A DNA stretch of 64,000 nucleotides, from the IMG/VR virus record IMGVR_UViG_3300045988_064633, positions 16,129 through 80,128 of that record. One strand, written 5' to 3'. Position 1 is the first letter of the stretch. Every line of letters begins with the position of its first letter. The notes below the pieces were generated by a model, which saw only the letters and a list, made by a program, of their open reading frames with translations, ran no database searches and had not been told where the DNA came from. Made by a program: the position numbers and the translations under genes. Below are positions 3,510 through 58,167 of this stretch, piece after piece. The stretch comes from a virus.

Positions 3510-3581
3510 TCGGAAAGGCAGGAATCGAACCTGCGACACATAGCTTACAAGGCCATTGCTCTGCCACTGAGCTACATTCCA
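3510..3581 (-). tRNA. tRNA-Thr (anticodon UGU)
   Basis: Manual cloverleaf, 72 nt. Acceptor TGGAATG/CTTTCCG has one U-U mismatch. D stem GCTC/GAGC, anticodon loop CTTGTAA, T arm GCAGG-TTCGATT-CCTGC. Confidence 0.75.
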
Positions 3582-3699
3582 TCATGCTTTTCGGTCCAGA
3601 CACCAGACAACAGGATAAGCAATAACCTTTTCTCATGAGATAAATTCAGCCGAATCATAGACCGCCTGTATACAGACAGCATAATTCCGACCAAATTAA

Positions 3700-3771
3700 T
3701 TGCAGGAGACGGATTTGAACCGCCGTTCTCAAGGATATGAACCTTGCGAGATTCCGCTTCTCTATCCTGCC
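3700..3771 (-). tRNA. tRNA with CAU anticodon (Met or lysidine-Ile2)
   Basis: 72-nt cloverleaf. Acceptor GGCAGGA/TCCTGCA has a G1-A72 mismatch. D stem GAGA/TCTC, anticodon arm CAAGG-TTCATAT-CCTTG, T arm GGCGG-TTCAAAT-CCGTC. Confidence 0.75.
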
Positions 3772-3871
3772 TTGTGTGGATTTTCAGCGTATTTGTACCG
3801 GCAATCCACAAGCCGACTGTTTCTTACATCTCGGACAGCTTCCTCATATCCAATATTTACAGATTGGATAA

Positions 3872-3942
3872 TGGGAGAATGCGGAGTTGAACCGCCATGG
3901 TACTGTTAATCAGCCCTCTGCCCCTTATGGTATTATTCCCCC
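3872..3942 (-). tRNA. Degenerate tRNA-like element (anticodon position would read UUA)
   Basis: Good acceptor GGGGGAA/TTCTCCC and T arm GCGG-TTCAACT-CCGC. The D arm is weak and the anticodon stem is mismatched. Loop is GATTAAC with A at position 33. Confidence 0.35.
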
Positions 3943-4301
3943 AGAACCCGGAGATTGTTCCGGGTTAGCAATGATTTTTTCGTGTTATGCTTTCCACTAG
4001 GCAATTTTTCATAACTTGGACTATCGTATTTTTGCCAACCTGACGGCTTTTTGGTAACCGTGGTATGCTCCACGGAGTTGTTTCGGATATTATTATGCCT
4101 TTTGACTTTATGCTTCTTGAAAACTCCCTGCCATCAACGTGCACTTATGATGACTTATTGAAACTAAGAAACATTTATCGGACGGGAAATCAGATCAAGC
4201 ACAAGCCTATGCCGTTACATACCTTTGCTCATTCTGATTCACACACGCTCATCCGAAAGTTTTTTCTGCCCATAAAACGGATGGGTAGCATACGGAAGAA
4301 A

Positions 4302-4374
4302 TGGAAATTCTGAGATTCGAACTCAGGGCTTCCCGGTTATGAGCCGGGCGTTCTAACCGCTGAACTAAATTTCC
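4302..4374 (-). tRNA. tRNA with CAU anticodon (Met or lysidine-Ile2)
   Basis: Canonical 73-nt cloverleaf: GGAAATT/AATTTCC, D GTTC-AGCGGTTA-GAAC, anticodon arm CCCGG-CTCATAA-CCGGG, T arm CTGAG-TTCGAAT-CTCAG. Confidence 0.85.
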
Positions 4375-4608
4375 TGAGTAGAAGCAGTCTCCCGGATTGC
4401 AGATTTTGAGTTGATTTGCTTCTACTGTTGCGGTTCTTTGCCACCAGCCGCAACAAAGGTCATGGCTAAATAGAGTACCTCGTTTTTACGAGGATTCCCA
4501 TCCGGGACATTTGAATCCCCTTTAATCAGCTCCGTTGAGCTAGATGGGTTTTCGTCGGAGGGTCTATGTAAAATAAACCATTGCCAGGTACATGCGCAGC
4601 CCGGCAAA

Positions 4609-4680
4609 CTGGGCTAGCGGGATTCGAACCCGCACATGACGGAATCAAAGTCCGTTACCTTACCTTTTGGCGATAGCCCT
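4609..4680 (-). tRNA. tRNA-Gln (anticodon UUG)
   Basis: 72 nt with Gln-type 3-bp D stem GCC/GGT. Anticodon arm ACGGA-CTTTGAT-TCCGT, T arm GCGGG-TTCGAAT-CCCGC, unpaired 1-72 as in bacterial tRNA-Gln. Confidence 0.8.
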
Positions 4681-5131
4681 AGAATCTTTCTCCCACTCCG
4701 CACCATTACAAAAGCAGGAGAAAGAATTGAGTGTGTGATAATATTTTTATTATGTGCTCTACAATTGCAACACAACTTATGTGGAGAATTCAGCATTTAA
4801 ATAACTAAGTTGTTCTCTTTTTTGTAGAGTCATATTTGCTAAATCGGATGTCTCGATCGTTTGCTTGCATACCGCTCCACTACCGGACAAGCGTATCCTT
4901 TCGGTTTAATTATAGGTTTAACCCGTTCTATGATAAAAAACGGAATAATCCTCATAGGAATTGCAATCAGCATGTATTTACCTCGCAGTGCAAATCAAAA
5001 CTGTATTAAGTATCATTCCTGCTTCCATCAGCAAGAAGAATGCTGTGGAAAATTGATTGCCTTTGTAATTCCGGCTCATTAAAAATGCAGCTGAATATTA
5101 ATTGCTACTGCGATAATGGTTAATGGTAATC

Positions 5132-27458: not shown

Positions 27459-27724
27459 ACTTCTGCCACCTTTTGATATTCATATCCAACAAGGTGAAAC
27501 GCTCGCGGAGTATTCGGATGCGCAGTAGCAATCAAGCCATCAAGTTCGAGCTGCCTCATATGTCGTTGCACAGTTGCTTTTGATATGCCAAGGCTTTCGG
27601 AAATTTCTTTAAATGACGGTGCGTATCCATATTTTGTAAAATATCTGATAAGAAACAGATAAATTTCTTTTCTGTTCTCTTGTCCCTCGAGATACTTTCT
27701 TTCGGTGTTATATTTACTTACCAT
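27455..27724 (-). CDS. Winged-helix DNA-binding protein (LexA N-terminal-domain-like)
   Basis: YGYAPSFKEISESLGISKATVQRHMRQLELDGLI; start after GAGGTAA. Confidence 0.55.
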   Translation of the reverse strand: MVSKYNTERKYLEGQENRKEIYLFLIRYFTKYGYAPSFKEISESLGISKATVQRHMRQLELDGLIATAHPNTPRAFHLVGYEYQKVAEV

Positions 27725-27866
27725 AGTTACCTCATTTCTTTTAACCTCTGGGTTCAGATCGCGATCATATGCCAAGGAAGTTGCATGAATCAGTCCAAAC
27801 CCAGAGGGCGTGCGCATATTTAGTTGTAATTATTTGGGATTTTGTCTGCCAGAACCGGCAGCTTTA

Positions 27867-28457
27867 TCATTTGTAAGATTCTTCATCAAGAAGATTATTG
27901 AATTTCTCAAGTGCCTTTATAGACACCTTGTTGTTTGATTTCTCCGGTTTGATTGATACTTCTAAGTGAGTATCAATGATATGCTTTAATTCTCTTGCAA
28001 GGGTTGTTTTTCCTTGCTTGATTCCATCTCTATAGCCTTTAGCTGGTTTGAATTCATTAATCTTTTCTTTCCCCTCGCCTTGGCTTCCAGATGTCTTGTT
28101 GTATCTGCATTGATAACCTTTCTTTGTATATTCCAGAATCCAGAACTGCTCCATTTTATCAAGCTGTTCTACCGGATAATGAATGAAATTAATTTTCCAT
28201 CCAAAAGGATTATCTTCACTGTAGAATCCTCTTTTCTTTATGGACAAGTCAATGTGCTGATATCCAGTGAGATGTGAACACATCCTCTGAATTATATGTA
28301 CTGCTTGCCCGATATAAAAGAATGGGATTCCGTTTTCATCTACTCTGGTTAAGAAATAAATACCGCTTTTGTTATCTAAATCCGGATTAACTTTTAAAAG
28401 CCTTTTCTTGTTACTCACTTCGATAGCCTTAAACTGACGAATTTTTTTATAATCCAC
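27867..28457 (-). CDS. GIY-YIG nuclease domain protein
   Basis: SGIYFL ... FFYIGQA ... R ... E spacing typical of GIY-YIG. Confidence 0.7.
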   Translation of the reverse strand: MDYKKIRQFKAIEVSNKKRLLKVNPDLDNKSGIYFLTRVDENGIPFFYIGQAVHIIQRMCSHLTGYQHIDLSIKKRGFYSEDNPFGWKINFIHYPVEQLDKMEQFWILEYTKKGYQCRYNKTSGSQGEGKEKINEFKPAKGYRDGIKQGKTTLARELKHIIDTHLEVSIKPEKSNNKVSIKALEKFNNLLDEESYK

Positions 28458-28463
28458 TAGGCA

Positions 28464-28901
28464 TCACTCCTTTTCAATCTGGTCAATGAGTTTCTTACAC
28501 TCATCTTTGACATAAGCAAGTGAACAGATTTTGAAATCCGTTTCGAAGCCGAAATCTTTGCTCGACTCTCTCCAGAAGTTTTCCATTGTATGAAAAAGTC
28601 TTTTAAAGTCTGGGTCATCTCCAAAATACTGTTTTGCTGTATCAACATCATATCCATCAAAACAATGAGCACAATCAAATCCAATCCACCATGTATTATC
28701 ATCGCTGCAATCATATAGTGATGGTTCTGCATAAGTAACTCCGCCATGACAGTTAAGATAGCCTAAATCGACAACTCTTTTCTTTGCTAACTTATGGCTG
28801 TAAGGTATTCCGACATATCCGCATCTGTATGCTCCGGGCATAAACAGAACTACACATGGATAACCTTTATAATCAAATTTGCACTCTAAAATTGGTTTCA
28901 T
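28464..28901 (-). CDS. Hypothetical protein
   Basis: 145-aa ORF with HGGVTY ... WWIGFDCAHCFD motif; family not recalled. Confidence 0.5.
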   Translation of the reverse strand: MKPILECKFDYKGYPCVVLFMPGAYRCGYVGIPYSHKLAKKRVVDLGYLNCHGGVTYAEPSLYDCSDDNTWWIGFDCAHCFDGYDVDTAKQYFGDDPDFKRLFHTMENFWRESSKDFGFETDFKICSLAYVKDECKKLIDQIEKE

Positions 28902-28912
28902 TTCATCGCTCC

Positions 28913-29335
28913 TTAATTAAACGGAAGTTCGTCATCCATAATTGACGGCATATCCATAAATCCACTTGTGTCCTGTTCTGGATTTGGAACTGGTGGCTGC
29001 AACTGTTCTTCTGGCTGGATCTTCTTGTTCTCCGCAAACTCATGTGTTTCCACAAGGCAATCATTTGTGTAGACTTTCCTTCCGTCCTTGTCAGTGTAAT
29101 TTCCAGTCCTCCAAGTTCCGATAACTGCAATCTTCATTCCTTTATACAGATATTTTTCGGCAAACTCACCATTCTTTCCAAGTGCAACACAATTTATGAA
29201 GTCTGATGTGCGTTCATTGTTTTTGCGATACTGTCTCTCAACTGCAAGTGTGTATCTGGCAATTGTTATATTGTTTGTTCCCATTCCTATTTCTGGGTCT
29301 TTTACCAAACGTCCGATCAAAATTACTTTATTCAT
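28913..29335 (-). CDS. ssb: Single-stranded DNA-binding protein
   Basis: MNKVILIGRLVKDPE OB-fold start and acidic tail DDELPF. Confidence 0.85.
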   Translation of the reverse strand: MNKVILIGRLVKDPEIGMGTNNITIARYTLAVERQYRKNNERTSDFINCVALGKNGEFAEKYLYKGMKIAVIGTWRTGNYTDKDGRKVYTNDCLVETHEFAENKKIQPEEQLQPPVPNPEQDTSGFMDMPSIMDDELPFN

Positions 29336-29702
29336 GTTTGTTCTCCTTGTACGGTTCTGGCATAGCTGGCAAAGGCATCCATGCAATTACTTTCAATTTT
29401 TCGAAACCGTCTGTAAAATATTCTCCATTCCACATTGCTCTGAATGGAATTGTTCCTTTTTCGGTAGCAATCAAATATATGTCTCCTTTAAAATTATGAT
29501 TAGGTTTTGGTTCCGGCGGCAGTTTCACGTCTACTGGAATCCACATATCCGATAAGCTATATGAATTAAACAGTTTCTCAATCTTTTCGATTGCATCATT
29601 CCAACCCTTGTTGTACCGACAGAACAATGGGTCAACTTTCTCTGGATTACTGTGAGTTGACGGCTTCTTTAATTTTTTAAGTGATTCTAAGAAATGTTCC
29701 AT
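29328..29702 (-). CDS. DUF551-like protein (second copy)
   Basis: MWIPVDVKLPPEP ... VIAWMPLPAMPEPYK. Confidence 0.55.
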   Translation of the reverse strand: MEHFLESLKKLKKPSTHSNPEKVDPLFCRYNKGWNDAIEKIEKLFNSYSLSDMWIPVDVKLPPEPKPNHNFKGDIYLIATEKGTIPFRAMWNGEYFTDGFEKLKVIAWMPLPAMPEPYKENKHE

Positions 29703-32371: not shown

Positions 32372-32746
32372 TTATCTTTTCCTGTCTTTTGTTCTCCATG
32401 AAATAGTCATATACTTTATATCTTTTACCATTTGCGACCATGCTTCCATTCCACCGGAATTGATAATTCCTAATTCATATGAAAGTTCTATAAAGTACAT
32501 CAACTCATCACAATGAGTAATGGCTTTTGTTTGAAGTTCTAATCGTTCTCTTTTATAATCTTTCAGATCAGTTCGGTTGGCTTCAAATAGTGACTCATAA
32601 ATTTCCAATGCTTTATTTTGCATTTTATCTACAAGTGAAAACCTGTATTTCTTCGGGTATCGTCTGGCATTACTCGTAACTATTAATGTATGCTTTGCAA
32701 GTTGCTTGGATTTTGCTATTACCTTTAAATCTTCATTCGCCATCAA
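32372..32746 (-). CDS. avd: DGR accessory variability determinant (Avd, four-helix-bundle protein)
   Basis: 124-aa basic helical protein in the canonical target-avd-TR-RT order; resembles four-helix-bundle / 23S-IVS family proteins. Confidence 0.8.
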   Translation of the reverse strand: MMANEDLKVIAKSKQLAKHTLIVTSNARRYPKKYRFSLVDKMQNKALEIYESLFEANRTDLKDYKRERLELQTKAITHCDELMYFIELSYELGIINSGGMEAWSQMVKDIKYMTISWRTKDRKR

Positions 32747-33348
32747 TCATCATTTCCTGATTCAAAGATTGAAGAAGAAAAGATGCAAACTGGGCGAACA
32801 CCATTTCCGCCGCCGTAATTGCGGCTGCCGAAATTGCCCGAAGGGGAAACAATAGTAATTGTTGTACTGTAATCATTTGCTGGTGTACTCCATGGAGTAA
32901 GCAGCCACCACCATTTATCCATATTTGGAAGGATTTTTCTGTATTTTCGGTATTCATCCACCGTCAAAATCGAAATCTTATCTTTACAATGTGCATATTC
33001 TGTCTGACCGTCCATAGAAAGTAAATCTCGATCAAACTCAATAACTGCATCTTCTCCAAGCTCGTCCGTAATTTTTTTAAGAAAACGAGTGTTTAACTCA
33101 TTTCTCAGTTTACTTGAAATCCAGTTATTTGAAGCTGAATCAAATGTTCTTTCTTTTCCATCAAATCCATTCAAAATGGCAAAATATCCTTTTTCTGTCT
33201 TATCCAGAATCAGCCATTCCATACCAGCAAGTTCAATAGCTTTTCCGATTTCCGGCTTTCCGATGTGCTTTTTCTTGAATTCTGCGAACTCTTTACTTAA
33301 TCTGGATAATTCATCCTCAAAATATTTCAGATTTTTCTTCATAATCAT
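32743..33348 (-). CDS. DGR variable target protein 1 (C-type-lectin-like VR tail)
   Basis: C-terminus WWWLLTPWS...IVSPSGNFGSRNYGGGNGVRPVC carries VR1 48 nt before the stop. Confidence 0.85.
   Translation of the reverse strand: MIMKKNLKYFEDELSRLSKEFAEFKKKHIGKPEIGKAIELAGMEWLILDKTEKGYFAILNGFDGKERTFDSASNNWISSKLRNELNTRFLKKITDELGEDAVIEFDRDLLSMDGQTEYAHCKDKISILTVDEYRKYRKILPNMDKWWWLLTPWSTPANDYSTTITIVSPSGNFGSRNYGGGNGVRPVCIFSSSIFESGNDD
32791..32857 (-). repeat. DGR variable repeat VR1
   Basis: 11 differences from TR, all at TR plus-strand T (coding-strand A). Confidence 0.85.
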
Positions 33349-33950
33349 TCCTCCACCTTAGATACAAAGATATTAGATTTTAAGATACAAACTGGGCGAA
33401 CACCACTTCCGACGTCGTAAAGGTCGCCGCAGATACTGCCCGAAGGGGAAACAATAGCAATACTTTTTTTCCATCCACGTTCTTCCGTTGACCATGGCGA
33501 TAATGTCCAATACCAGTCGTTCAGATCATTGTTCGGTGTAATATCTGTGTATTCTCGTGCTTCATCAAATGTAATTGGACGGATTTTACAATCAACAGTC
33601 CCCAATTTCTGTCCATCCGCAGTGATAATATCTGCTGTGTGTGTTTCGACATTTTCTGCCCCGAATTCTTCTTCGAAGTCTTTCAGAATTTCAGTGTCAC
33701 ACAGTTTCTTTACGTTTGATGTTTTGTAATCTGAGGTATCACCAAACTCTACATTTTCTTTCACCAGATCAAGCGAAATAATTTTTGTTGTATCTCCATA
33801 CTGTTCCAGAACCTTGTATTTACGCTTTCCAGTGGTCTGAAATACTTCTCCTCGTTTCAGCGTTGACAACTCAACCTTTCCGGTTTCTTCCTGCTTTTCC
33901 AGAAGTTCAACCAGTTCCTTTGCTTTCTGTAAAATTTCTTTATTGTTCAT
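33345..33950 (-). CDS. DGR variable target protein 2 (paralog of target 1)
   Basis: C-terminus WYWTLSPWS...IVSPSGSICGDLYDVGSGVRPVC carries VR2 48 nt before the stop; start after GGAGGC. Confidence 0.85.
   Translation of the reverse strand: MNNKEILQKAKELVELLEKQEETGKVELSTLKRGEVFQTTGKRKYKVLEQYGDTTKIISLDLVKENVEFGDTSDYKTSNVKKLCDTEILKDFEEEFGAENVETHTADIITADGQKLGTVDCKIRPITFDEAREYTDITPNNDLNDWYWTLSPWSTEERGWKKSIAIVSPSGSICGDLYDVGSGVRPVCILKSNIFVSKVEE
33393..33459 (-). repeat. DGR variable repeat VR2
   Basis: 14 differences from TR, all at TR plus-strand T (coding-strand A). Confidence 0.85.
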
Positions 33951-34341
33951 TCCCGTTGCCTCCAAAAAATATTTCTCGCATATCTACTGCTGCGTACTTC
34001 TTATGCATAAGTTTCTTGTTTTTGATTGCCCCGTTCGGATTGTTGCAGACAAAATCTCTGCATATCTCAGGTCTCACTGGATAAATGAGACATTTTTCTT
34101 TTTCTTTGGAATCATCCAGGAACGGGCAAGTAAGGTCAAAAGCTACAACCGAAGGATAATTATGTTTCTGCTCAGTGATATGATGCTTCTTTACGTAACG
34201 TTTGATTTCTTTAATTTCTTTACTGGATATTGGCAAGTAGTTGCTACAACATTGTCCGCAACCACTGCATTTACCGTCCTTTGTGAATTCAAATACTCCA
34301 CATTTCATATCCTTCATGACTTCTTCTAACGTCCCGATCAT
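33940..34341 (-). CDS. YkgJ-family Cys-cluster (zinc/iron-chelating) protein
   Basis: CSGCGQCC ... CPFL ... C ... VRPEICRDFVC pattern. Confidence 0.65.
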   Translation of the reverse strand: MIGTLEEVMKDMKCGVFEFTKDGKCSGCGQCCSNYLPISSKEIKEIKRYVKKHHITEQKHNYPSVVAFDLTCPFLDDSKEKEKCLIYPVRPEICRDFVCNNPNGAIKNKKLMHKKYAAVDMREIFFGGNGNEQ

Positions 34342-34510: not shown

Positions 34511-35611
34511 TTATTCCTCCTGTTTCATAAAATCTGGAATCTCTGGTTCTTTACCTGCTGCCGGAACTGGTTCCTTCTCAGCTGGCTGTACGGCTTCTGC
34601 AACTGTTGGCTGTTTTGGCTGTTCTTCGATTGCCATTGGTTCTGGAATGAATTCCTCTTTATTGGCATTCTGTTCGATCTCTTCCTGTACTTCCCTGTAT
34701 GTAGCGTCCATCGTGTTATATTCATATGCCTGTACCGGATTATCCCATTTCTTAGGAATAGACTTCATAATGTTGTTACGCATTTTACGAACAATCATAG
34801 ATTCTCTCGACTGCGTTTCGTAATAAGACGGTGAAATATATGGTCTTAATTCCTCACAATCAATAATTGCTTCCAGTTCCCCAATATCAGCAACCTTTTT
34901 CATGATTTCTTTTTTCTTTGCTTCAATCTGAGTTTTCTGTGCATCTGTAGCTTTGTATCTGTCTGCACAAATACCGAATGTTTCATTCTGAAGATTGTTC
35001 TTAATATGTGCTGCAAGATTCTTCAGTACGTCTGCTCTTTCGCATGAAAGGTATTCAACGTGACCATCTTTGTACTGAATTGGATATACCACGCGAATAA
35101 CTTTTCCAATTCCAGATTCTTCCCATTCCGGCGGTGTGATTTCTACACCTCTGTGTCTTGGTGGGATATACTTGTCACCCTCTCTTACTTTCCAATATGG
35201 AAATACTTTAGCCACATTGACACCATATCTACTTACAAGAGCATCGTTTCCGTCGCCCTCAATCGCAAATTCGATTTTCTTCTCCCACTGAGGTTTCTGC
35301 CCTTTTGCCGCTATGTTTACGTTTCTGATCTGGAAATAACATTCTCTCGGCTGTGCATTTGCGTTCAGCTTTAATGCTGCGACTTTACTCAGGATAAATT
35401 TAAGATTAGAACCGTTGATTGCTTCAAAACTCACACCGCTTTCATGTACCATCTGGAAAATAGATCCCATTGCTGCTACTACACAATCTTTTGAATATGA
35501 ATCAAATTCCATTCCTCTTGAAGTCAAATCTCTTTCCATTAAATCGACATACCGATTTGTGTAGTAGGAAAGCTGTGTGTTAAAATTTGCTACCTGTGTG
35601 TTTTCTGCCAT
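34511..35611 (-). CDS. Putative RecT-like single-strand annealing protein
   Basis: Position among SSB/ATPase genes, and ECYFQIRN ... IEFAIEGDGNDALVSRYG resembles the RecT core; acidic/Pro-rich tail. Confidence 0.45.
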   Translation of the reverse strand: MAENTQVANFNTQLSYYTNRYVDLMERDLTSRGMEFDSYSKDCVVAAMGSIFQMVHESGVSFEAINGSNLKFILSKVAALKLNANAQPRECYFQIRNVNIAAKGQKPQWEKKIEFAIEGDGNDALVSRYGVNVAKVFPYWKVREGDKYIPPRHRGVEITPPEWEESGIGKVIRVVYPIQYKDGHVEYLSCERADVLKNLAAHIKNNLQNETFGICADRYKATDAQKTQIEAKKKEIMKKVADIGELEAIIDCEELRPYISPSYYETQSRESMIVRKMRNNIMKSIPKKWDNPVQAYEYNTMDATYREVQEEIEQNANKEEFIPEPMAIEEQPKQPTVAEAVQPAEKEPVPAAGKEPEIPDFMKQEE

Positions 35612-36053
35612 TTTAATTCTCCTTTTCTTTTATTAATTAACTCATTTTTTGTTTGCATTTCTGTTCAGTTCTGCACTTCGCCAAAGCAAATCATAACCGA
35701 GCTACGCTCTGCCTATCCTTTGCTCATCTTCTCTACTCAGCACCATTGCTATACTTTACTTTTCTATTCCGTGCTTCGCCTATACGTATCTTTGCCCTGC
35801 CCTACTTCGCCAATGCGTTACATTTCTTTACAACACATTGCTCTGCTGCGCTTTTCCGCTACCTCACTATGCGAAACCTCTCTTTACTTTGCCAAAACGT
35901 ATCAACTCTTTTCAATTCCATAACTTTGCCCTTCTGCACCTCTCAGTACCACTCCGATACATTACTTTGCTACGCTTCGCCGAAGCAAATCATTACCCAG
36001 CAATTCTGCGCCTTTGCTTTGCCTATCATAACTACATTCAGCCATGCCGTAGC
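35612..36053. repeat. ORF-free block of degenerate same-orientation CTTYGCC repeats (block A)
   Basis: CTTCGCC at 35676, 35774, 35805, 35975; CTTTGCC at 35790, 35887, 35924, 36017. The 26-nt copies 35676-35701 and 35975-36000 match 23/26. The plus strand is pyrimidine-rich. Confidence 0.5.
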
Positions 36054-36650
36054 TTATTTTGTGATTTCAGTCCATTTGAAACGGCCTTTGCCTGAGTTTC
36101 GCCACTGACCAATGTCGTTAAACTCTCCATAATCAAGCCAGTCAATTACATATTTCATGAGTGAATCATCAAGTACTTTGATTGTGAATTCTACTGTTGA
36201 CCCTGCTGGTACTGTTTCACTGTCTGCCAAAGAGATTCTTTCGCCCTGTGCTGTCTGCGCTCTCAGTGGTCTCTGACAATCAGAAAGTTCTGTACCTTCT
36301 GGAAGAACAAACGGAATTTTGCGTTCGTTTACAAATACCAGTAAGTCAATTTTTTTCTTATAAGCTGCAAGTTTCTTTGCTCCACCGATATAGGAACTGG
36401 CCTGTGCAGCTGACTTAAAGAATCCTCTGATCTGGTAGTCCCAAAGGAACGGATTGCCGTTATCATCTTTCGGAAATACTGTTCGACCTTTTTCGACAAC
36501 TTCTTCAATTCCTAAAGCTTCAACTTCCTGTTCTCTGGAAGGTGCATCTGGTGCTTTTGATGCAATGAATTTCTCGTGAATATCTTTTTCTGCATTTGCG
36601 GTTCCCAGAACTTCCTCTAAAAATGTTAATCTGACTTTTAATTCTTTCAT
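36054..36650 (-). CDS. Conserved-looking hypothetical protein (198 aa)
   Basis: Good RBS GGAGGAATACGAG; motifs PFLWDYQIRGFFKSA and GQWRNSGKGRFKW; family not recognised. Confidence 0.6.
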   Translation of the reverse strand: MKELKVRLTFLEEVLGTANAEKDIHEKFIASKAPDAPSREQEVEALGIEEVVEKGRTVFPKDDNGNPFLWDYQIRGFFKSAAQASSYIGGAKKLAAYKKKIDLLVFVNERKIPFVLPEGTELSDCQRPLRAQTAQGERISLADSETVPAGSTVEFTIKVLDDSLMKYVIDWLDYGEFNDIGQWRNSGKGRFKWTEITK

Positions 36651-36952
36651 CTCGTATTCCTCCGATTTTTATATTTTGCTTAATGCTTTGCTTGTCACAG
36701 CCGTGCGTTTCCGTTGCTGTTCTTTGCCTCTCAGAGCCGTGCCGTTGCATCTCAAATCAGTGCTTAGCTATGCCTTTGCTTTACTCGGCTATTCTATTCT
36801 CAACGTTTCCATTGCATTTCATTTCTTCACGCTGCAGTTCAGTGCCTGTCTATTCCGTGGCATTTCATATCTGTTCTATGCATATCCCTTGCTTCGCTTC
36901 TCATTGCTTCGCTTTGCCGTTGCAAAGCTAACTATGCTAATCCTATTGCGTT
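36651..36952. repeat. ORF-free block of related degenerate repeats (block B)
   Basis: CTTTGCC at 36722 and 36912; GCTTCGCTTC at 36891. Repeated ttccattgcatttcat / ttccgtggcatttcat and agccgtgc..ccgttgc units. Shares vocabulary with block A. Confidence 0.5.
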
Positions 36953-37192
36953 TTAATCGCAATAACTTCTATTACAGAACGGGCAACTCGTAATCAACTG
37001 CCCTGCTGCACTTTCTACTGAGATGCCCTGTGTGTCATATCCGGTACGTGTCCGTCCTTTCTCGGAATAGATATTCTGGTGGCAAGACCAACAGATACCA
37101 TTGCCCGGTGCAAAACGTGGCAATATCTTTGTTTTACAATACCAATCCTGTGCTTTGATTGCTTCTGGAATGTTATATGTAGTTGTCGCCAT
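36953..37192 (-). CDS. Zinc-binding small protein
   Basis: CWSCHQ ... CPFCNRSYC. Confidence 0.5.
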   Translation of the reverse strand: MATTTYNIPEAIKAQDWYCKTKILPRFAPGNGICWSCHQNIYSEKGRTRTGYDTQGISVESAAGQLITSCPFCNRSYCD

Positions 37193-37193
37193 A

Positions 37194-39170
37194 TTAAATT
37201 CCCTCCACTTTTAATTCATCGTCGGAAACTTTAAGTAGAATCATCTGTCTGCCTGTATCTGGTATTCTGTCAGCATTCACACTTTCAACATCATCAACCC
37301 AAATTGGCAAGTTTAAGCCGTTCAATTCCTGCAATCCAGTCACGAGGTCAATATTGCATAGAATCTGATCGGAGTGATTCAATCCATCAAAATATCCGAT
37401 TCCGTCACAAATCATTTTACAAACTTCCACCGGCTCACCGTCCTGCGTATAGTCCAAAAATTGAAACTGAAAGTGCTTGAAAAGTGGATTGATAGCTTCT
37501 GCCAGTGCCTGATTTTTTTTGATGGAAAATTCTTTCAACATGTCAAGTTTCTGCTGAATATTGGAATCTTCCTGACCTAACTCTTTCTGTTCTGTGTTCA
37601 GCTGTTCAAGTGTTTCTGTCTGTTTCTGAACTGCCTGTTTTGCCATCTCAATTTTTATTTCGATTCCTGTAAGTTCCTTTTCAGCAGACATTCTTTCTGC
37701 CTGAACTGCTGCCTTTTCCTCAGAATTATTAGTCAGTCCGTCAAGCTGTTCCTGTTTCTTCTGGATTTCTGCTACAACTGCCTGATACTCTTCATTTCCA
37801 GACATATCTGGCTCTGCCGGAAGCTTCTCTAATTCCTGATTTTTCTGCGCAATCTCAGATGCCAGAGTGGAAATATTTTTCTTTGTCTGCTCAATCTGCG
37901 ATTCGATGTCTTTGCGCTTTTCCTCAACTTCTTTTCTTCTGGCTACTTCGGAATTGCCTTCTTCTGTAATGTCTTTAAGTTTCTGCTGTTTGTCTGCTTT
38001 AAACTGCTCTTTTTTCGCAAACTCTGCATGGATTCTTTCCTGTTTCTTCTGTTCAAATTCAGTTTTAAGACGTTCAACCTGTTCCTCCGGAAGTGCCTGT
38101 CCGCAGGTCGGGCAAATAGCTGATTCAGGATCAAATTTTTCATTCTGTATGGCATTTAAAGCTGTTTCATCAAATGTGGACGCATACGTCTGTTTATATT
38201 TCTCCTGCAAAACCGTAATTCTCTGCTGAATTCGTTCTGGTTTCTCAGCGGTCGCAAGGAAATTTCCCAGAATTCGGAGATTTTCTTCTTCATGTTTCTG
38301 CTTGAATCGCCTGTCATTTAATAAGGAAACGATTTTTCTCTTTTCTTCCTGTAATGCTTCTGCTGCATTTGAAATGATCGCATCTCTGGATTTCTTGAGA
38401 CCTGTAATCTCGTAGCAGAGCTCGTCATATGTTTTATTGGTTTCATTTAGCAGCTTTTCTTTTTCAAGAAGACCATTCAGTTTATCCAGCACGGCATTCT
38501 TCTTTTCTTCAAGAATGGTAAAATCTGGTGTTCCCTGTTTCTTTACGGTATCAATTTCAACCTTTTTGGCATCAATTTTCTTCTGGAAGTCTTTTTTGTC
38601 TCTATTGAGTTTTTTCACAACTTCCTCGACAGAATGATTCTTGATGATTTCCGAAACTTCTGGATTGTCCTGTAATACTTTATCCGCATTGAACCCTGCC
38701 ATCTTTTCAAGCATTACTCTGGCACTTGCTGTTGATTTTCGAAGTTCATTAAGGAATACTCTGGCATTACTACACATCATAATGGTTTCTGAGTCTGATA
38801 TTCCTTTTAAAAATTCCTTATACTTCGTCTGGTTGTAATCAAACCCATCAACCTGATATTTTGTGGTACTGGAAGATTTACCTTTCTTCGTTTCCTTACG
38901 GATCACGGTTTCCTCTCCATCAATCAGAAGTGTGAGTTCTCTTGATACGACACCCTCAACTTCTTCTCCGTCTTCTTTTCTTCTGACATTATTCGGAGAT
39001 GTACCGTCTGCAAGCTTTCCGGTCAGTGTATCAAAATATGCGTCCATCAACGTTGTTTTACCCTGACGGTTCCTACCGGACACCATCGTTCGTGGTGCAA
39101 ACTGATACTCCGCAGACTCAAACTTCTTGTAGTTTTCAATGTTAAGCTGTTTCAATTCTACTGTTTTCAT
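37194..39170 (-). CDS. SbcC/Rad50-like AAA ATPase with long coiled coil and CxxC hook
   Basis: Walker A GRNRQGKTT, ~400-aa coiled coil with central CPTCGQ, C-terminal ...PIWVDDVES Walker B-like. Confidence 0.8.
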   Translation of the reverse strand: MKTVELKQLNIENYKKFESAEYQFAPRTMVSGRNRQGKTTLMDAYFDTLTGKLADGTSPNNVRRKEDGEEVEGVVSRELTLLIDGEETVIRKETKKGKSSSTTKYQVDGFDYNQTKYKEFLKGISDSETIMMCSNARVFLNELRKSTASARVMLEKMAGFNADKVLQDNPEVSEIIKNHSVEEVVKKLNRDKKDFQKKIDAKKVEIDTVKKQGTPDFTILEEKKNAVLDKLNGLLEKEKLLNETNKTYDELCYEITGLKKSRDAIISNAAEALQEEKRKIVSLLNDRRFKQKHEEENLRILGNFLATAEKPERIQQRITVLQEKYKQTYASTFDETALNAIQNEKFDPESAICPTCGQALPEEQVERLKTEFEQKKQERIHAEFAKKEQFKADKQQKLKDITEEGNSEVARRKEVEEKRKDIESQIEQTKKNISTLASEIAQKNQELEKLPAEPDMSGNEEYQAVVAEIQKKQEQLDGLTNNSEEKAAVQAERMSAEKELTGIEIKIEMAKQAVQKQTETLEQLNTEQKELGQEDSNIQQKLDMLKEFSIKKNQALAEAINPLFKHFQFQFLDYTQDGEPVEVCKMICDGIGYFDGLNHSDQILCNIDLVTGLQELNGLNLPIWVDDVESVNADRIPDTGRQMILLKVSDDELKVEGI

Positions 39171-39784
39171 ACTGTTTTATCCTCCACCCAATAAGCCGAC
39201 ACTTCATAGGCTGTTTTCTTCTCGACCTGATTTCCGACTTTTTTGTTGTACTCTCTGCTCTGGATTCTTCCCTGTAAAATAATATGTGTGCCAGTTCCGC
39301 AGGTTCCCATGTATCTTGCATTTCTGCCCCAGCAGATGCATGGTATGTAATCAGATATGCCGTATGATCTATTTACCGCCAGAAGTACATCTGCAATCTC
39401 TCTTCCATTAGGTGTTGTTCTGTATACTGGTTTCTTGCAAGTAAAACCATCCAGAAGAATCTGATTAACTGGAAGTGCGTCTTTGTCCATGAATTTTGCT
39501 TCTCTTGCGAACACAAAAAGAAGTAATCTACTGTGATTTTCTTCGTGCTTATTGAACGATCTGAACTGCCCTTGAATTTCCATCATTTCTCCTGTATAGT
39601 TCTGTTTCACATCAATGAGTCTCTCAGAAACTACAACCGGAAGAACATCTTTCGTTCCGCTAAATCGTTCTACGCTAAGTTCGAATCGGTAAAATTTTTC
39701 ACCATATACTTCATGGCTAAATTCGAATTCTGTTTTAATTTCTCCAACCAGTGTTGTCTGATTGTTTTCCAAAAGCTTATTCAA
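39167..39784 (-). CDS. SSB-like protein with two OB-fold-like halves
   Basis: LVGEI...F.L.V.R and second half ADVLLAVNRSYGISDYIPCICWGRNARY...GRIQSREY resemble SSB/PriB-type OB folds. Confidence 0.55.
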   Translation of the reverse strand: MNKLLENNQTTLVGEIKTEFEFSHEVYGEKFYRFELSVERFSGTKDVLPVVVSERLIDVKQNYTGEMMEIQGQFRSFNKHEENHSRLLLFVFAREAKFMDKDALPVNQILLDGFTCKKPVYRTTPNGREIADVLLAVNRSYGISDYIPCICWGRNARYMGTCGTGTHIILQGRIQSREYNKKVGNQVEKKTAYEVSAYWVEDKTV

Positions 39785-57942: not shown

Positions 57943-58167
57943 AGTAGATAACCTCCATGTCGTTAATGTGTGACTGCCTTGTAGCCACAGATCCATGATT
58001 TATAAAAACAACAGGCAGGTGCATCATGGAATTGCACTTGTCCCCCGTCGGGTTAGCCTGTTGGTTTTACCAAACAAAAAAAGAGCACACAAAAGAATCG
58101 TGAGGCTTTTCCCTCGTTTCATCTTTAGTGTGCTCTCTTCAACAAATGTAATAACTATTTCTCGTTT

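What the first reader, a model, noticed from the sequence alone, without database searches (positions are those of the whole stretch)
35612..36952. Two strand-skewed degenerate-repeat non-coding blocks flank a single unknown gene in the recombination module
In an otherwise gap-free operon, a 442-bp block (35612-36053) and a 302-bp block (36651-36952) have no credible minus-strand ORF. They flank the 198-aa gene 36054..36650. Both blocks are pyrimidine-rich on the plus strand, about 63-72 percent in two 60-nt samples I counted. That skew is why long spurious plus-strand ORFs appear there. They contain at least 12 same-orientation CTT(C/T)GC(C/T) motifs, which read GGCRAAG on the transcribed strand. 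A 26-nt copy pair (35676-35701 and 35975-36000) matches 23/26. The two blocks share words such as gcatttc...ctgttc and acggaatag. The motifs are irregularly spaced, so this is not a CRISPR array and not classical helical-phase iterons. Possible roles are a structured or protein-sponging RNA, an orientation-dependent DNA site array (for example Chi-like GAAGCG-type sites beside RecT/SbcC/SSB genes), or a second origin. The enclosed protein has motifs I cannot place (PFLWDYQIRGFFKSA, GQWRNSGKGRFKW).
Basis: seen in the sequence. Interest (0 to 1): 0.7.

Follow-up and report, generated by a model that had tools for sequence, protein, structure and literature searches.

The report
Phage VIPR locus: RAMP gene plus guide-RNA arrays
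The two "junk-looking" blocks are long arrays of 5-letter repeats that flank a small CRISPR-like RNA-binding protein gene; together they match VIPR, a phage RNA-guided DNA-recognition system first described in 2026, here in a very abundant gut-phage lineage with an unusually regular array layout.

Summary
Both blocks are non-coding and 68% pyrimidine on the + strand. They hold 17 CTTYGCY motifs, against about 1.6 expected. The motifs are not irregular: they sit on a strict lattice. On the transcribed (minus) strand each block is an unbroken run of GNNNN pentamers, with a GCAANG hexamer about every sixth unit (period 5.16 nt). G occupies 77 of 78 lattice points downstream and 53 of 53 upstream.

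The enclosed 198-aa protein has no Pfam, PHROG or NCBIfam hit. Its AlphaFold model matches Cas7/Csm3 RAMP proteins (Foldseek E about 1e-7).

The same gene-plus-array unit recurs in unrelated phage contexts. Arrays were periodic in 22 of 23 blocks from IMG/VR and metagenome loci and next to 59 of 63 genes in gut Clostridia MAGs. Among close relatives the lattice G is conserved and the four N positions are hypervariable.

This fits VIPR systems (bioRxiv 10.64898/2026.04.26.720920): a roughly 20-kDa phage RAMP flanked by pentanucleotide-repeat guide RNAs that silence competing phages.

I file it as a new member of that kind, NNNNG-repeat class. Sequence similarity to the characterised SUSP1 Vipr is weak. 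No targets were found, and no accessory gene is conserved.

The parts
36054..36650 (-). vipr-like gene: a 198-aa stand-alone RAMP (Cas7/Csm3-like) protein. The model shows an RRM core, an inserted helical bundle (about residues 24-55), a long beta-hairpin 'thumb' (about 123-147, with invariant or near-invariant R127, P128, R130, R138) and a C-terminal glycine-rich loop GIGQWRNSGKGRF.
   Evidence: AF2 model has pLDDT 82.5 and pTM 0.77. The top 50 Foldseek PDB hits are all Csm3, type VII Cas7 or Cas7-11, with E down to 1e-7 and TM up to 0.58. The BFVD top hit is named 'Cas system-associated RAMP superfamily protein' (54% identity, TM 0.90). Pfam, PHROG and NCBIfam give nothing. At least 7,941 homologues were found.
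35652..36053 (-). Downstream repeat array (candidate vrRNA array). It is 402 nt and starts right after the vipr stop codon. It has 78 lattice points, 77 of them G. It consists of GNNNN pentamers with a hexamer about every sixth unit.
   Evidence: DP parse. The 31-nt row display keeps register over 13 rows. Fourier power is 14.6 at 5.15 nt.
36676..36952 (-). Upstream repeat array (candidate vrRNA array). It is 277 nt and starts right after the stop codon of the 79-aa gene. All 53 lattice points are G.
36651..36675 (-). Short non-periodic leader carrying the ribosome-binding site (GGAGG) of the vipr-like gene.
   Evidence: Read directly from the sequence.
35612..35651 (-). A-rich non-periodic linker with the ribosome-binding site of recT. 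It marks the 3' end of the downstream array.
   Evidence: Read directly from the sequence.
35975..36000 (-). Copy 1 of the 26-nt direct repeat. In sense it contains a small hairpin, UUUGC-UUCG-GCGAA, that stays in lattice register.
   Evidence: Relatives L007, L010, L020, L022, L023 and L026 have lost the roughly 299 nt between the two copies.
35676..35701 (-). Copy 2 of the 26-nt direct repeat (23/26 identical), near the 3' end of the downstream array. It could be a conserved 3' 'tail' element.
36911..36928 (-). Hairpin GCUUUGC-AACG-GCAAAGC near the 5' end of the upstream array. It recurs with different loops in related arrays.
   Evidence: examples L006, L007, L014, L020, L024, L027, L036; sequence.
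36953..37192 (-). 79-aa Cys-rich (Zn-ribbon-like) gene directly upstream of the array. It is context only. It is a weak candidate for an accessory (vap-like) gene and is conserved only within this phage clade.
   Evidence: PHROG 20040, unknown function. Present in 38 loci that also carry the same SbcC-like ATPase gene (the window phage's own clade) and absent from other contexts such as L003.

Best explanation
This is a VIPR (Viral Interference Programmable Repeat) locus: a small phage-encoded RAMP protein (Vipr) flanked on both sides by arrays that encode its guide RNAs (vrRNAs).

Proposed mechanism:
1. The arrays are transcribed with the early recombination operon on the minus strand.
2. Vipr protomers polymerise along the RNA, one per pentamer.
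3. The conserved lattice G of each GNNNN unit is held in a protein pocket. Invariant W183 in the glycine-rich loop aligns with SUSP1 W178, and an Arg-rich thumb is also present. The variable N bases are left exposed.
4. The exposed bases read double-stranded DNA of competing phages or prophages through a gapped base-pairing code, and binding represses transcription.

Shown here: the RAMP fold; the repeat lattice; its strand, position and uniqueness in the window; co-inheritance of gene and arrays across contexts; and the conserved-G, hypervariable-N pattern.

Taken from the two VIPR preprints, for the type II SUSP1 and P. fulva systems only: formation of a ribonucleoprotein, filament geometry, the 1-nt-skip code and silencing.

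Inferred for this clade: that these arrays are expressed and processed, how they are decoded, and what they target.
For: 1. Fold. The AF2 model matches only Cas7/Csm3-type RAMPs in the PDB. A profile search of PDB sequences gives a weak type VII Cas7 hit. PADLOC gives Cas6 at E = 0.022. The BFVD relative is annotated as a RAMP.

2. Arrays. GNNNN units have G at 93-94% of position 1 and almost never at position 2. The period is 5.16 +/- 0.006 nt in 22 of 23 blocks. The G-G autocorrelation is still 1.4-fold at lag 134.

3. Specific association. No other place in the 64-kb window has this signal. In L003 the gene sits between SSB and DUF3310 and still carries a 469-nt array. In independent genome loci with 49-66% protein identity, 59 of 63 have an adjacent array with median period 5.16.

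4. Evolution. Among relatives with 93-99% identical protein, diversity at lattice G is 0.055-0.066. At the N positions it is 0.13-0.16 downstream and 0.35-0.42 upstream.

5. Not a structured RNA, not coding and not a CRISPR array.

6. Literature. Vipr is described as a roughly 20-kDa phage RAMP with a G-loop, thumb and helical bundle. [quoted passage not shown] Alternative repeats NNNGG, YNNNG and NNNNG and 'staggered arrays' are reported (10.64898/2026.04.26.720920; 10.64898/2026.04.26.720927).

7. Comparison with SUSP1. The hhalign alignments place the G-loop G(I/L)G(Q/D)WR..G(K/R)F of this family on SUSP1 Vipr D177-W178-R179, and the alignment also lines up the helix-1 motif GAK...K-x-ID.
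Against: Sequence homology to the characterised type II Vipr family is weak (hhalign E = 1.2e-3, probability 19%, C-terminal half only).

The repeat differs from the characterised code. It has one conserved G rather than GGY. All four other positions are variable. A hexamer comes about every sixth unit. Arrays run for 40-110 units with no clear tail, against 9-16 units plus a pseudoknot tail in type II.

No second (vap) gene is conserved across clades.

No targets were found under more than 16 decoding rules in about 1 Mb of related phage DNA, or in three IMG/VR scans. Guide function is therefore untested.

No promoter, terminator or ribozyme marks individual RNAs.

I could not see the preprint's figures or data tables, so I cannot say which of its seven types this clade belongs to, or confirm that it is included at all.
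Confidence: 0.85

Rival explanations
1. The RAMP-like protein coats its own transcript at these G-lattice sites for a non-guide purpose, such as autoregulation, mRNA protection, or an RNA-protein filament acting as a decoy. This would resemble type IV-B Csf2 filaments, which assemble on non-specific RNA. No DNA target would be read.
For: Same fold and array evidence as the main explanation. No targets were found under any tested rule. The arrays are continuous and far longer than characterised vrRNAs. There is no accessory gene. Type IV-B precedent: PMC7937560, abstract listed.
Against: A pure scaffold or binding-site array would not need four hypervariable positions per unit that turn over quickly between near-identical proteins. 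That pattern is the signature of specificity-encoding positions. The characterised relatives are guide systems.
Confidence: 0.07
2. A DNA-level site array: iterons of a second origin, Chi-like orientation-dependent sites, or a helically phased protein-wrapping region. Twice 5.16 is 10.3 bp, about one helical turn.
For: The lattice is non-integer and coherent and its double equals a DNA helical repeat. The array sits in a replication and recombination module next to RecT, an SbcC-like ATPase and SSB. Array boundaries coincide with recT allele swaps and internal deletions in relatives.
Against: There is no power at 10.33 nt (11.5 summed over 23 blocks, against about 17 expected by chance). The lattice is fully explained by five pentamers plus one conserved hexamer. 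The orientation is always that of the RAMP gene, whether the array is upstream or downstream. The unit also occurs away from RecT and SbcC. No initiator or DNA-binding gene is linked. Only one position per unit is conserved, which is a poor basis for a DNA-binding site. GAAGCG-type Chi words are a small minority of units.
Confidence: 0.04
3. An anti-CRISPR device: a Cas7 mimic plus decoy RNA that poisons host type III or type I complexes, in the manner of RNA anti-CRISPRs (Racrs).
For: The closest solved folds are Csm3/Cas7. Phage RNA anti-CRISPRs that mimic CRISPR repeats exist (PMC10651486, abstract listed).
Against: The arrays do not resemble CRISPR repeats. No repeat-spacer structure exists. 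The period is 5.16 nt, not the 6 nt of Cas7-crRNA. The protein lacks close sequence similarity to any Cas7 (best E = 0.54).
Confidence: 0.03
4. Decayed genes or a neutral mutational or compositional artefact, such as microsatellite expansion.
For: Array lengths vary, and repeat-mediated deletions occur among relatives.
Against: There is no codon periodicity and there are stops in all frames. No intact ORFs replace the blocks in relatives. A lattice kept in register over 400 nt and across lineages at 49-66% protein identity, with regular hexamer punctuation, needs selection.
Confidence: 0.01

Closest known systems
VIPR systems (Vipr protein plus vrRNA); type II exemplars are Escherichia phage SUSP1 and a Pseudomonas fulva prophage (bioRxiv 10.64898/2026.04.26.720920 and 10.64898/2026.04.26.720927)
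   Same: Both are phage-encoded. Both have a single RAMP of about 20 kDa with an RRM core, G-loop, thumb and helical bundle. Both have long non-coding regions upstream and downstream of the gene, on the same strand. Both are made of tandem pentanucleotide repeats with conserved G and hypervariable N. Neither has a CRISPR array or other cas genes. The G-loop xWR motif aligns with SUSP1 D177-W178-R179.
   Different: The repeat is GNNNN (the preprint's 'NNNNG' class) with one conserved G rather than GGY. SUSP1 residues H17 and D177, which contact the first G, align here with T17 and Q182. A GCAANG hexamer comes about every sixth unit, giving a 31-nt superperiod. Arrays are continuous for 40-110 units. 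There is no obvious pseudoknot tail and no per-RNA promoter. No vap gene is conserved. Hosts are gut Clostridia rather than Proteobacteria. Protein sequence similarity is only marginal (E = 1.2e-3). The SUSP1 flanks, run as a control, show an integer 5-nt repeat confined to separate RNAs of about 60 nt.
Cas7 backbone proteins of class 1 CRISPR-Cas (Csm3 of type III-A, Cas7 of type VII, Cas7-11)
   Same: These are the best structural matches (E about 1e-7, TM 0.5-0.58). They share the RAMP fold, the G-rich loop and the thumb hairpin. They polymerise along a guide RNA.
   Different: There is no CRISPR array, no Cas5, Cas6, Cas10, Cas11 or Cas1-2, and no 6-nt periodicity. The gene is phage-borne. 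Sequence similarity is insignificant (E = 0.54).
Type IV-B Csf2 filaments
   Same: A minimal RAMP filament on RNA without a CRISPR array.
   Different: Csf2 binds heterogeneous cellular RNA and is linked to Cas11 and CysH-like genes. Here a dedicated, sequence-patterned RNA is encoded next to the gene.
TRAP-type arrays of RNA-binding sites ((G/U)AG triplets with 2-3-nt spacers)
   Same: A short conserved element recurs about every 5 nt on single-stranded RNA.
   Different: TRAP sites number 11 and wrap a ring. They have no long-range coherent lattice, and the protein fold is unrelated. I considered this only as an early lead, from memory.

Membership tests
VIPR system | A small (about 20 kDa) stand-alone RAMP protein with an RRM core, glycine-rich loop, thumb and helical bundle | tested here: met
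   The protein is 198 aa. The AF2 model has pLDDT 82.5. All top 50 PDB fold matches are Cas7/Csm3 RAMPs. The secondary-structure order is beta1, helical insert, helix-1, long beta-hairpin, alpha2, G-loop, beta4.
VIPR system | Sequence or profile homology to experimentally characterised Vipr (SUSP1 ALH47069.1 and relatives) | tested here: inconclusive
   hhalign of this family against the SUSP1 family gives E = 1.2e-3 and probability 19% over 101-106 columns, covering the C-terminal half including the G-loop. tblastn does not find SUSP1. The preprint itself says RAMPs share little sequence similarity.
VIPR system | The gene is flanked by long intergenic regions made of tandem pentanucleotide repeats (YNNGG or related: NNNGG, YNNNG, NNNNG) on the gene's strand | tested here: met
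   There are 78 and 53 lattice points in the window. G is at 93-94% of position 1. Arrays are periodic in 22 of 23 and next to 59 of 63 genes in the other loci examined.
VIPR system | Conserved repeat positions alternate with hypervariable guide positions | tested here: met
   Diversity is 0.055-0.066 at G and 0.13-0.42 at the four N positions among loci with 93-99% identical protein.
VIPR system | No CRISPR array or other cas genes; predominantly viral or proviral | tested here: met
   No CRISPR-like direct repeats anywhere in the window. The neighbours are RecT, an SbcC-like ATPase, SSB and a Zn-ribbon protein. 433 IMG/VR stretches encode relatives.
VIPR system | vrRNAs are expressed as discrete RNAs of about 100 nt and co-purify with Vipr | not testable with these tools
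   This needs small-RNA sequencing or a pull-down. No promoter, terminator or ribozyme signals delimit RNAs.
VIPR system | An invariant structured 3' tail caps each repeat tract | tested here: inconclusive
   A 26-nt element with a small hairpin occurs twice in the downstream array and is conserved at array 3' ends in relatives. Overall folding shows no excess over shuffles. Hairpins are only modestly enriched: 92 of 134 arrays have at least one, against 66 of 134 shuffled arrays.
VIPR system | An accessory vap gene lies next to vipr (typical, not universal) | tested here: not met
   No second gene family is shared across clades. The 79-aa Zn-ribbon gene is clade-specific. The preprint describes loci as 'typically' two-gene, so this does not exclude membership.
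VIPR system | Guide positions match natural DNA targets under a gapped (1-nt-skip) code | tested here: inconclusive
   There was no excess over column-shuffled controls for more than 16 decoding rules in about 1 Mb of related loci. Three IMG/VR pattern scans gave two seed hits that did not extend. The database and search depth were small.
Class 1 CRISPR-Cas Cas7 (type III / type VII) | Encoded with a CRISPR array and partner Cas proteins; binds crRNA with 6-nt periodicity | tested here: not met
   No array and no cas neighbours. There is no power at a 6.0-nt period (0.6-0.7 in the two window blocks; at most 2.1 in any block), against 5.6-18.6 at about 5.16 nt in the 22 periodic blocks.
Replication-origin iterons / Chi arrays | Repeated double-stranded DNA-binding sites with a conserved multi-base core, linked to an initiator or acting in an orientation-dependent way on RecBCD or AddAB | tested here: not met
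   Only one conserved base per 5-nt unit. No 10.3-nt power. No linked initiator. The unit moves with the RAMP gene, not with the recombination genes.

The most novel reading that the evidence does not exclude
This very abundant gut-Clostridia phage clade may be a distinct VIPR variant with its own code. It has one anchored G per protomer and up to four readable bases per unit. A conserved GCAANG hexamer (GG doublet) about every sixth unit either cuts the array into guides of about 31 nt (six protomers, tail-less and abutting), or resets register once per six-subunit turn of the Vipr filament. In either case its DNA-reading rule would differ from the published GGY/NN 1-nt-skip rule. I cannot exclude that the preprint's unseen figures (S17, S18; data S4) already show exactly this.
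Probability: 0.35. Interest if true: 0.75.

Novelty: new member of a known kind. Interest (0 to 1): 0.6.

Why it matters
VIPR was proposed in 2026 as an RNA-guided DNA-recognition system older than CRISPR, and it is a very compact programmable platform.

This locus belongs to a lineage with at least 7,941 protein clusters at 90% identity. It is found mostly in phages and prophages of human and animal gut Clostridia. That suggests such systems are a major, largely unannotated player in competition between gut phages: no Pfam, PHROG or NCBIfam model hits the protein.

The strict 5.16-nt lattice gives a simple, annotation-free detector for these arrays. In the 64-kb window a Fourier scan flagged only the two blocks, with no false positives.

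If the single-G repeat and the regular hexamer punctuation reflect a different decoding rule or a different processing scheme, they would widen the design space of the new code. They would also make testable how guide boundaries are set when there are no tails or ribozymes.

Tried and rejected
1. Stop-codon recoding or a hidden ORF. TAA, TAG and TGA occur in all sense frames and there is no suppressor tRNA. Rejected.

2. A 6-nt Cas7-type periodicity. No signal at 6.0 nt. Rejected. My first Fourier grid (5.0, 5.5, 6.0) missed the real peak at 5.16; the autocorrelation found it.

3. A DNA helical-repeat reading of the lattice. There is no power at 10.33, 15.5 or 31 nt. The lattice is explained by the pentamer and hexamer composition.

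4. Known RNA families, including hammerhead ribozymes. None at the gathering threshold or at E <= 1.

5. A structured RNA. Fold z-scores are about 0.

6. Promoters and terminators that might delimit RNAs. Nothing above shuffle expectation on the minus strand.

7. A TRAP, CsrA or Hfq-like site array, a ToxI-like antitoxin repeat, or a retron. I considered these from memory and dropped them once the RAMP fold and the VIPR literature were found.

8. Target prediction. I decoded arrays under more than 16 combinations of positions and skip length. I searched about 0.6 Mb and then about 1 Mb of related loci plus the window. There was no excess over column-shuffled controls. The only excesses were co-linear hits to unmasked homologous arrays, plus one chance site replicated across about 35 related loci. 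Three IMG/VR scans found 2, 0 and 0 hits, and the two hits did not extend.

9. A codon-like signature in the N positions. TAA and TAG are only mildly depleted. Not informative.

10. A conserved accessory gene. None found across clades.

11. Direct sequence link to SUSP1 Vipr. It remained weak even with a more diverse profile.
Full report
**Observation**

The window carries a contiguous minus-strand operon: SSB (39167..39784), an SbcC-like ATPase (37194..39170), a 79-aa Cys-rich protein (36953..37192), a 198-aa protein (36054..36650) and RecT (34511..35611).

Both blocks are non-coding. Every sense frame contains TAA, TAG and TGA. The only tRNAs are Thr, Met, Met and Gln. The 3-nt Fourier signal that is strong in the neighbouring genes (z = 10 and 18) is absent.

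The plus strand is 68% pyrimidine in both blocks. CTTYGCY occurs 11 and 6 times, always in one orientation, against 1.0 and 0.6 in dinucleotide shuffles of the blocks; 0 of 2000 shuffles reach the observed count. The 26-nt pair matches 23/26.

**The protein**

The 198-aa protein has no hit in Pfam, PHROGs or NCBIfam. It nevertheless has at least 7,941 homologues in the metagenomic protein collection.

An AlphaFold2 model built on 59 homologues is confident (pLDDT 82.5, pTM 0.77). Its 50 best matches in the PDB are all Cas7-type RAMPs: Csm3 of type III-A, Cas7 of type VII, and Cas7-11. E-values go down to 1e-7 and TM-scores up to 0.58.

Weak sequence signals point the same way. A profile search of PDB sequences finds type VII Cas7 at E = 0.54. 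PADLOC gives Cas6 at E = 0.022. The closest predicted viral structure (54% identity, TM 0.90) is annotated 'Cas system-associated RAMP superfamily protein'.

The model has an RRM core, a helical insert, a long beta-hairpin rich in invariant arginines, and a C-terminal glycine-rich loop, GIGQWRNSGKGRF.

**The blocks**

Read on the transcribed strand, the blocks are purine-rich and C-poor. They share strand-specific words of the form G[C/A]ANNG.

Autocorrelation over 23 non-redundant blocks from 17 loci shows G-G peaks at lags 5, 10, 15/16, 21, 26, 31, 36 and so on. The signal is still 1.4-fold at lag 134.

Fourier analysis gives a period of 5.16 nt (mean 5.155, sd 0.028) in 22 of 23 blocks. Power is 5.6 to 18.6, against shuffle maxima of about 3 to 4. 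The window's blocks score 14.3 and 14.6.

Printed in rows of 31 nt, the downstream block keeps its G columns in register over all 13 rows.

A dynamic-programming parse shows the anatomy: GNNNN pentamers with a hexamer about every sixth unit. G sits at 77 of 78 lattice points downstream and 53 of 53 upstream.

Over 138 dereplicated arrays there are 7,488 pentamers and 1,456 hexamers, with a mean unit length of 5.163 nt. The number of pentamers between consecutive hexamers peaks at five. Seventy per cent of intervals fall in the range 4 to 6, against 21% for random placement. The hexamer has its own consensus, GCAANG.

The lattice therefore reflects a punctuated pentamer array, not DNA helical phasing. 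There is no power at 10.33, 15.5 or 31 nt.

A sliding periodicity scan of the whole 64-kb window flags only these two blocks.

**Association and evolution**

The gene and at least one array travel together.
- In L003 the gene lies between SSB and a DUF3310 gene, in a different phage, and carries a 469-nt downstream array.
- Other clades carry only an upstream array of up to about 600 nt.
- In 63 independent loci from bacterial genomes, 59 have an adjacent array with median period 5.16. These loci are mostly gut Clostridia MAGs, with protein identity of 49-66%.

Among relatives whose protein is 93-99% identical, the lattice G is conserved (diversity 0.055-0.066). All four N positions vary: 0.13-0.16 downstream and 0.35-0.42 upstream.

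Arrays also change length by internal repeat-mediated deletion. The 442-nt block is 143 nt in L007, L010, L020, L022 and L026 and 142 nt in L023, through loss of the DNA between the two 26-nt copies. The downstream recT allele is swapped at the array boundary in some relatives.

The blocks show no excess RNA folding (z = -0.2 and +0.1). They match no Rfam family, including ribozymes. No promoter or terminator signal stands out. The window has no CRISPR-like repeats.

**Identification**

A literature search found two 2026 preprints on VIPR systems.

They describe a phage-encoded RAMP of about 20 kDa (Vipr) with a G-loop, thumb and helical bundle. [quoted passage not shown] Those sequences encode vrRNAs made of 9-16 YNNGG pentamers followed by a tail, located both upstream and downstream of the gene.

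One protomer binds each repeat. The conserved GGY is held by the protein, and the NN bases read double-stranded DNA with a one-nucleotide skip. Natural targets are competing phages and satellites, and binding represses transcription.

Seven types are described. They include alternative repeats (NNNGG, YNNNG, NNNNG), 'staggered arrays with overlapping vrRNAs' and ribozyme-separated arrays.

The present locus matches this description feature by feature, in the NNNNG class.

**Control with SUSP1**

As a control I fetched phage SUSP1. Its 195-aa gene at 28474..29061 carries every residue named in the structural preprint except position 175, which is V here and T in the paper. Its flanks show GGYNN repeats.

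Profile-profile comparison of the two families is weak but co-linear: E = 1.2e-3, probability 19%, 101-106 columns. It aligns the G-loop so that SUSP1 D177-W178-R179 falls on Q182-W183-R184 here.

An ungapped N-terminal alignment, made by eye, places SUSP1 H17 on T17. In SUSP1, H17 and D177 contact the first G, and W178 stacks on the second G. Replacement of the first two and retention of the tryptophan would fit a repeat with a single conserved G. This is an inference, not a result.

**What remains open**

I could not identify targets. Arrays were decoded under more than 16 combinations of read positions and skip length. Neither exact 8-unit matches nor 80% matches over 12 units exceeded column-shuffled controls in about 1 Mb of related loci plus the window. 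Three IMG/VR pattern scans gave two seed hits that did not extend. The search space was small, so this neither supports nor refutes guide function.

No accessory gene is conserved across clades.

Individual RNA boundaries are unknown. Candidates are the GG doublets at the hexamers and a small conserved hairpin element.

I had no access to the preprint's figures or data tables. I cannot assign one of its seven types, and I cannot tell whether the five-pentamers-plus-one-hexamer layout is its 'staggered array'.

**Verdict**

The finding is real and functionally coherent. It is best explained as a VIPR locus (confidence 0.85), so it is a new member of a recently described kind rather than something categorically new.

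Three features may go beyond what is published and deserve follow-up: the abundance of this lineage in gut phages, the single-G repeat with four variable positions, and the regular hexamer punctuation.

Noticed in passing
window 57993-58063 (-): Rfam match to int-alpA RNA (RF02996, 52 bits against a gathering score of 35.8). This small RNA is usually found next to phage integrase or AlpA genes.
   Followed up: no
window 3510-4681 (-): A cluster of four tRNA genes (Thr-TGT, Met-CAT, Met-CAT, Gln-TTG). None is a suppressor.
   Followed up: partly
L007, L010, L019, L024, L027, L029, L037 against window 34511-35611: Loci with 93-99% identical vipr-like genes carry at least three different annealase alleles just after the downstream array (N-termini MAENTQVANFN, MA(S/N)KTQV(T/A)TVGEQQ and MAENKNAVSTQ). 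The array's 3' end therefore behaves as a mosaic recombination junction.
   Followed up: partly
L036 3001-4700: In this relative the vipr ORF is extended to 213 aa. About 1.1 kb of coding-looking DNA (containing CKAYKNYGARGIKVCEEWESFEPF, which looks HNH or AP2-like) is inserted between the gene and its array. It may be a homing endonuclease.
   Followed up: no
window 36911-36928 and related arrays (L006, L014, L020, L024, L027, L036): A hairpin GCUUUGC-N4-GCAAAG(C/U) recurs about once per array, with variable loops. It pairs the commonest hexamer with its rare complement. It might be a processing or handle element.
   Followed up: partly
window 32743-33348 (-) and 33345-33965 (-): Two tandem paralogous genes of about 200 aa. 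They share a C-terminal W-x-L-x-PWST...GVRPVCI motif. The 206-aa gene was scanned and hits PHROG 9958 (unknown function) plus a weak Hoc-like hit; the 201-aa gene was not scanned.
   Followed up: no
L135 and L136 (JAGCAN010000001.1, 22-29 kb and 70-77 kb): One Oscillospiraceae MAG contig carries two vipr-like loci with identical array statistics about 48 kb apart. This could be a duplicated prophage or an assembly repeat.
   Followed up: no
L076 and relatives (L075-L085), about 1-3 kb downstream of vipr: A second, distant clade also places the vipr-like gene next to a RecT-like gene and an SMC/SbcC-like ATPase of different sequence. This hints at a recurrent preference for the recombination module.
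   Followed up: no
L086 (SUSP1, KT454805.2) 27500-29510: Control locus. The SUSP1 vrRNA regions show integer 5-nt GGYNN repeats in separate RNAs of about 60 nt, with hairpin tails and their own promoter-like TTGACA/TATA boxes. The continuous arrays studied here have none of these.
   Followed up: partly
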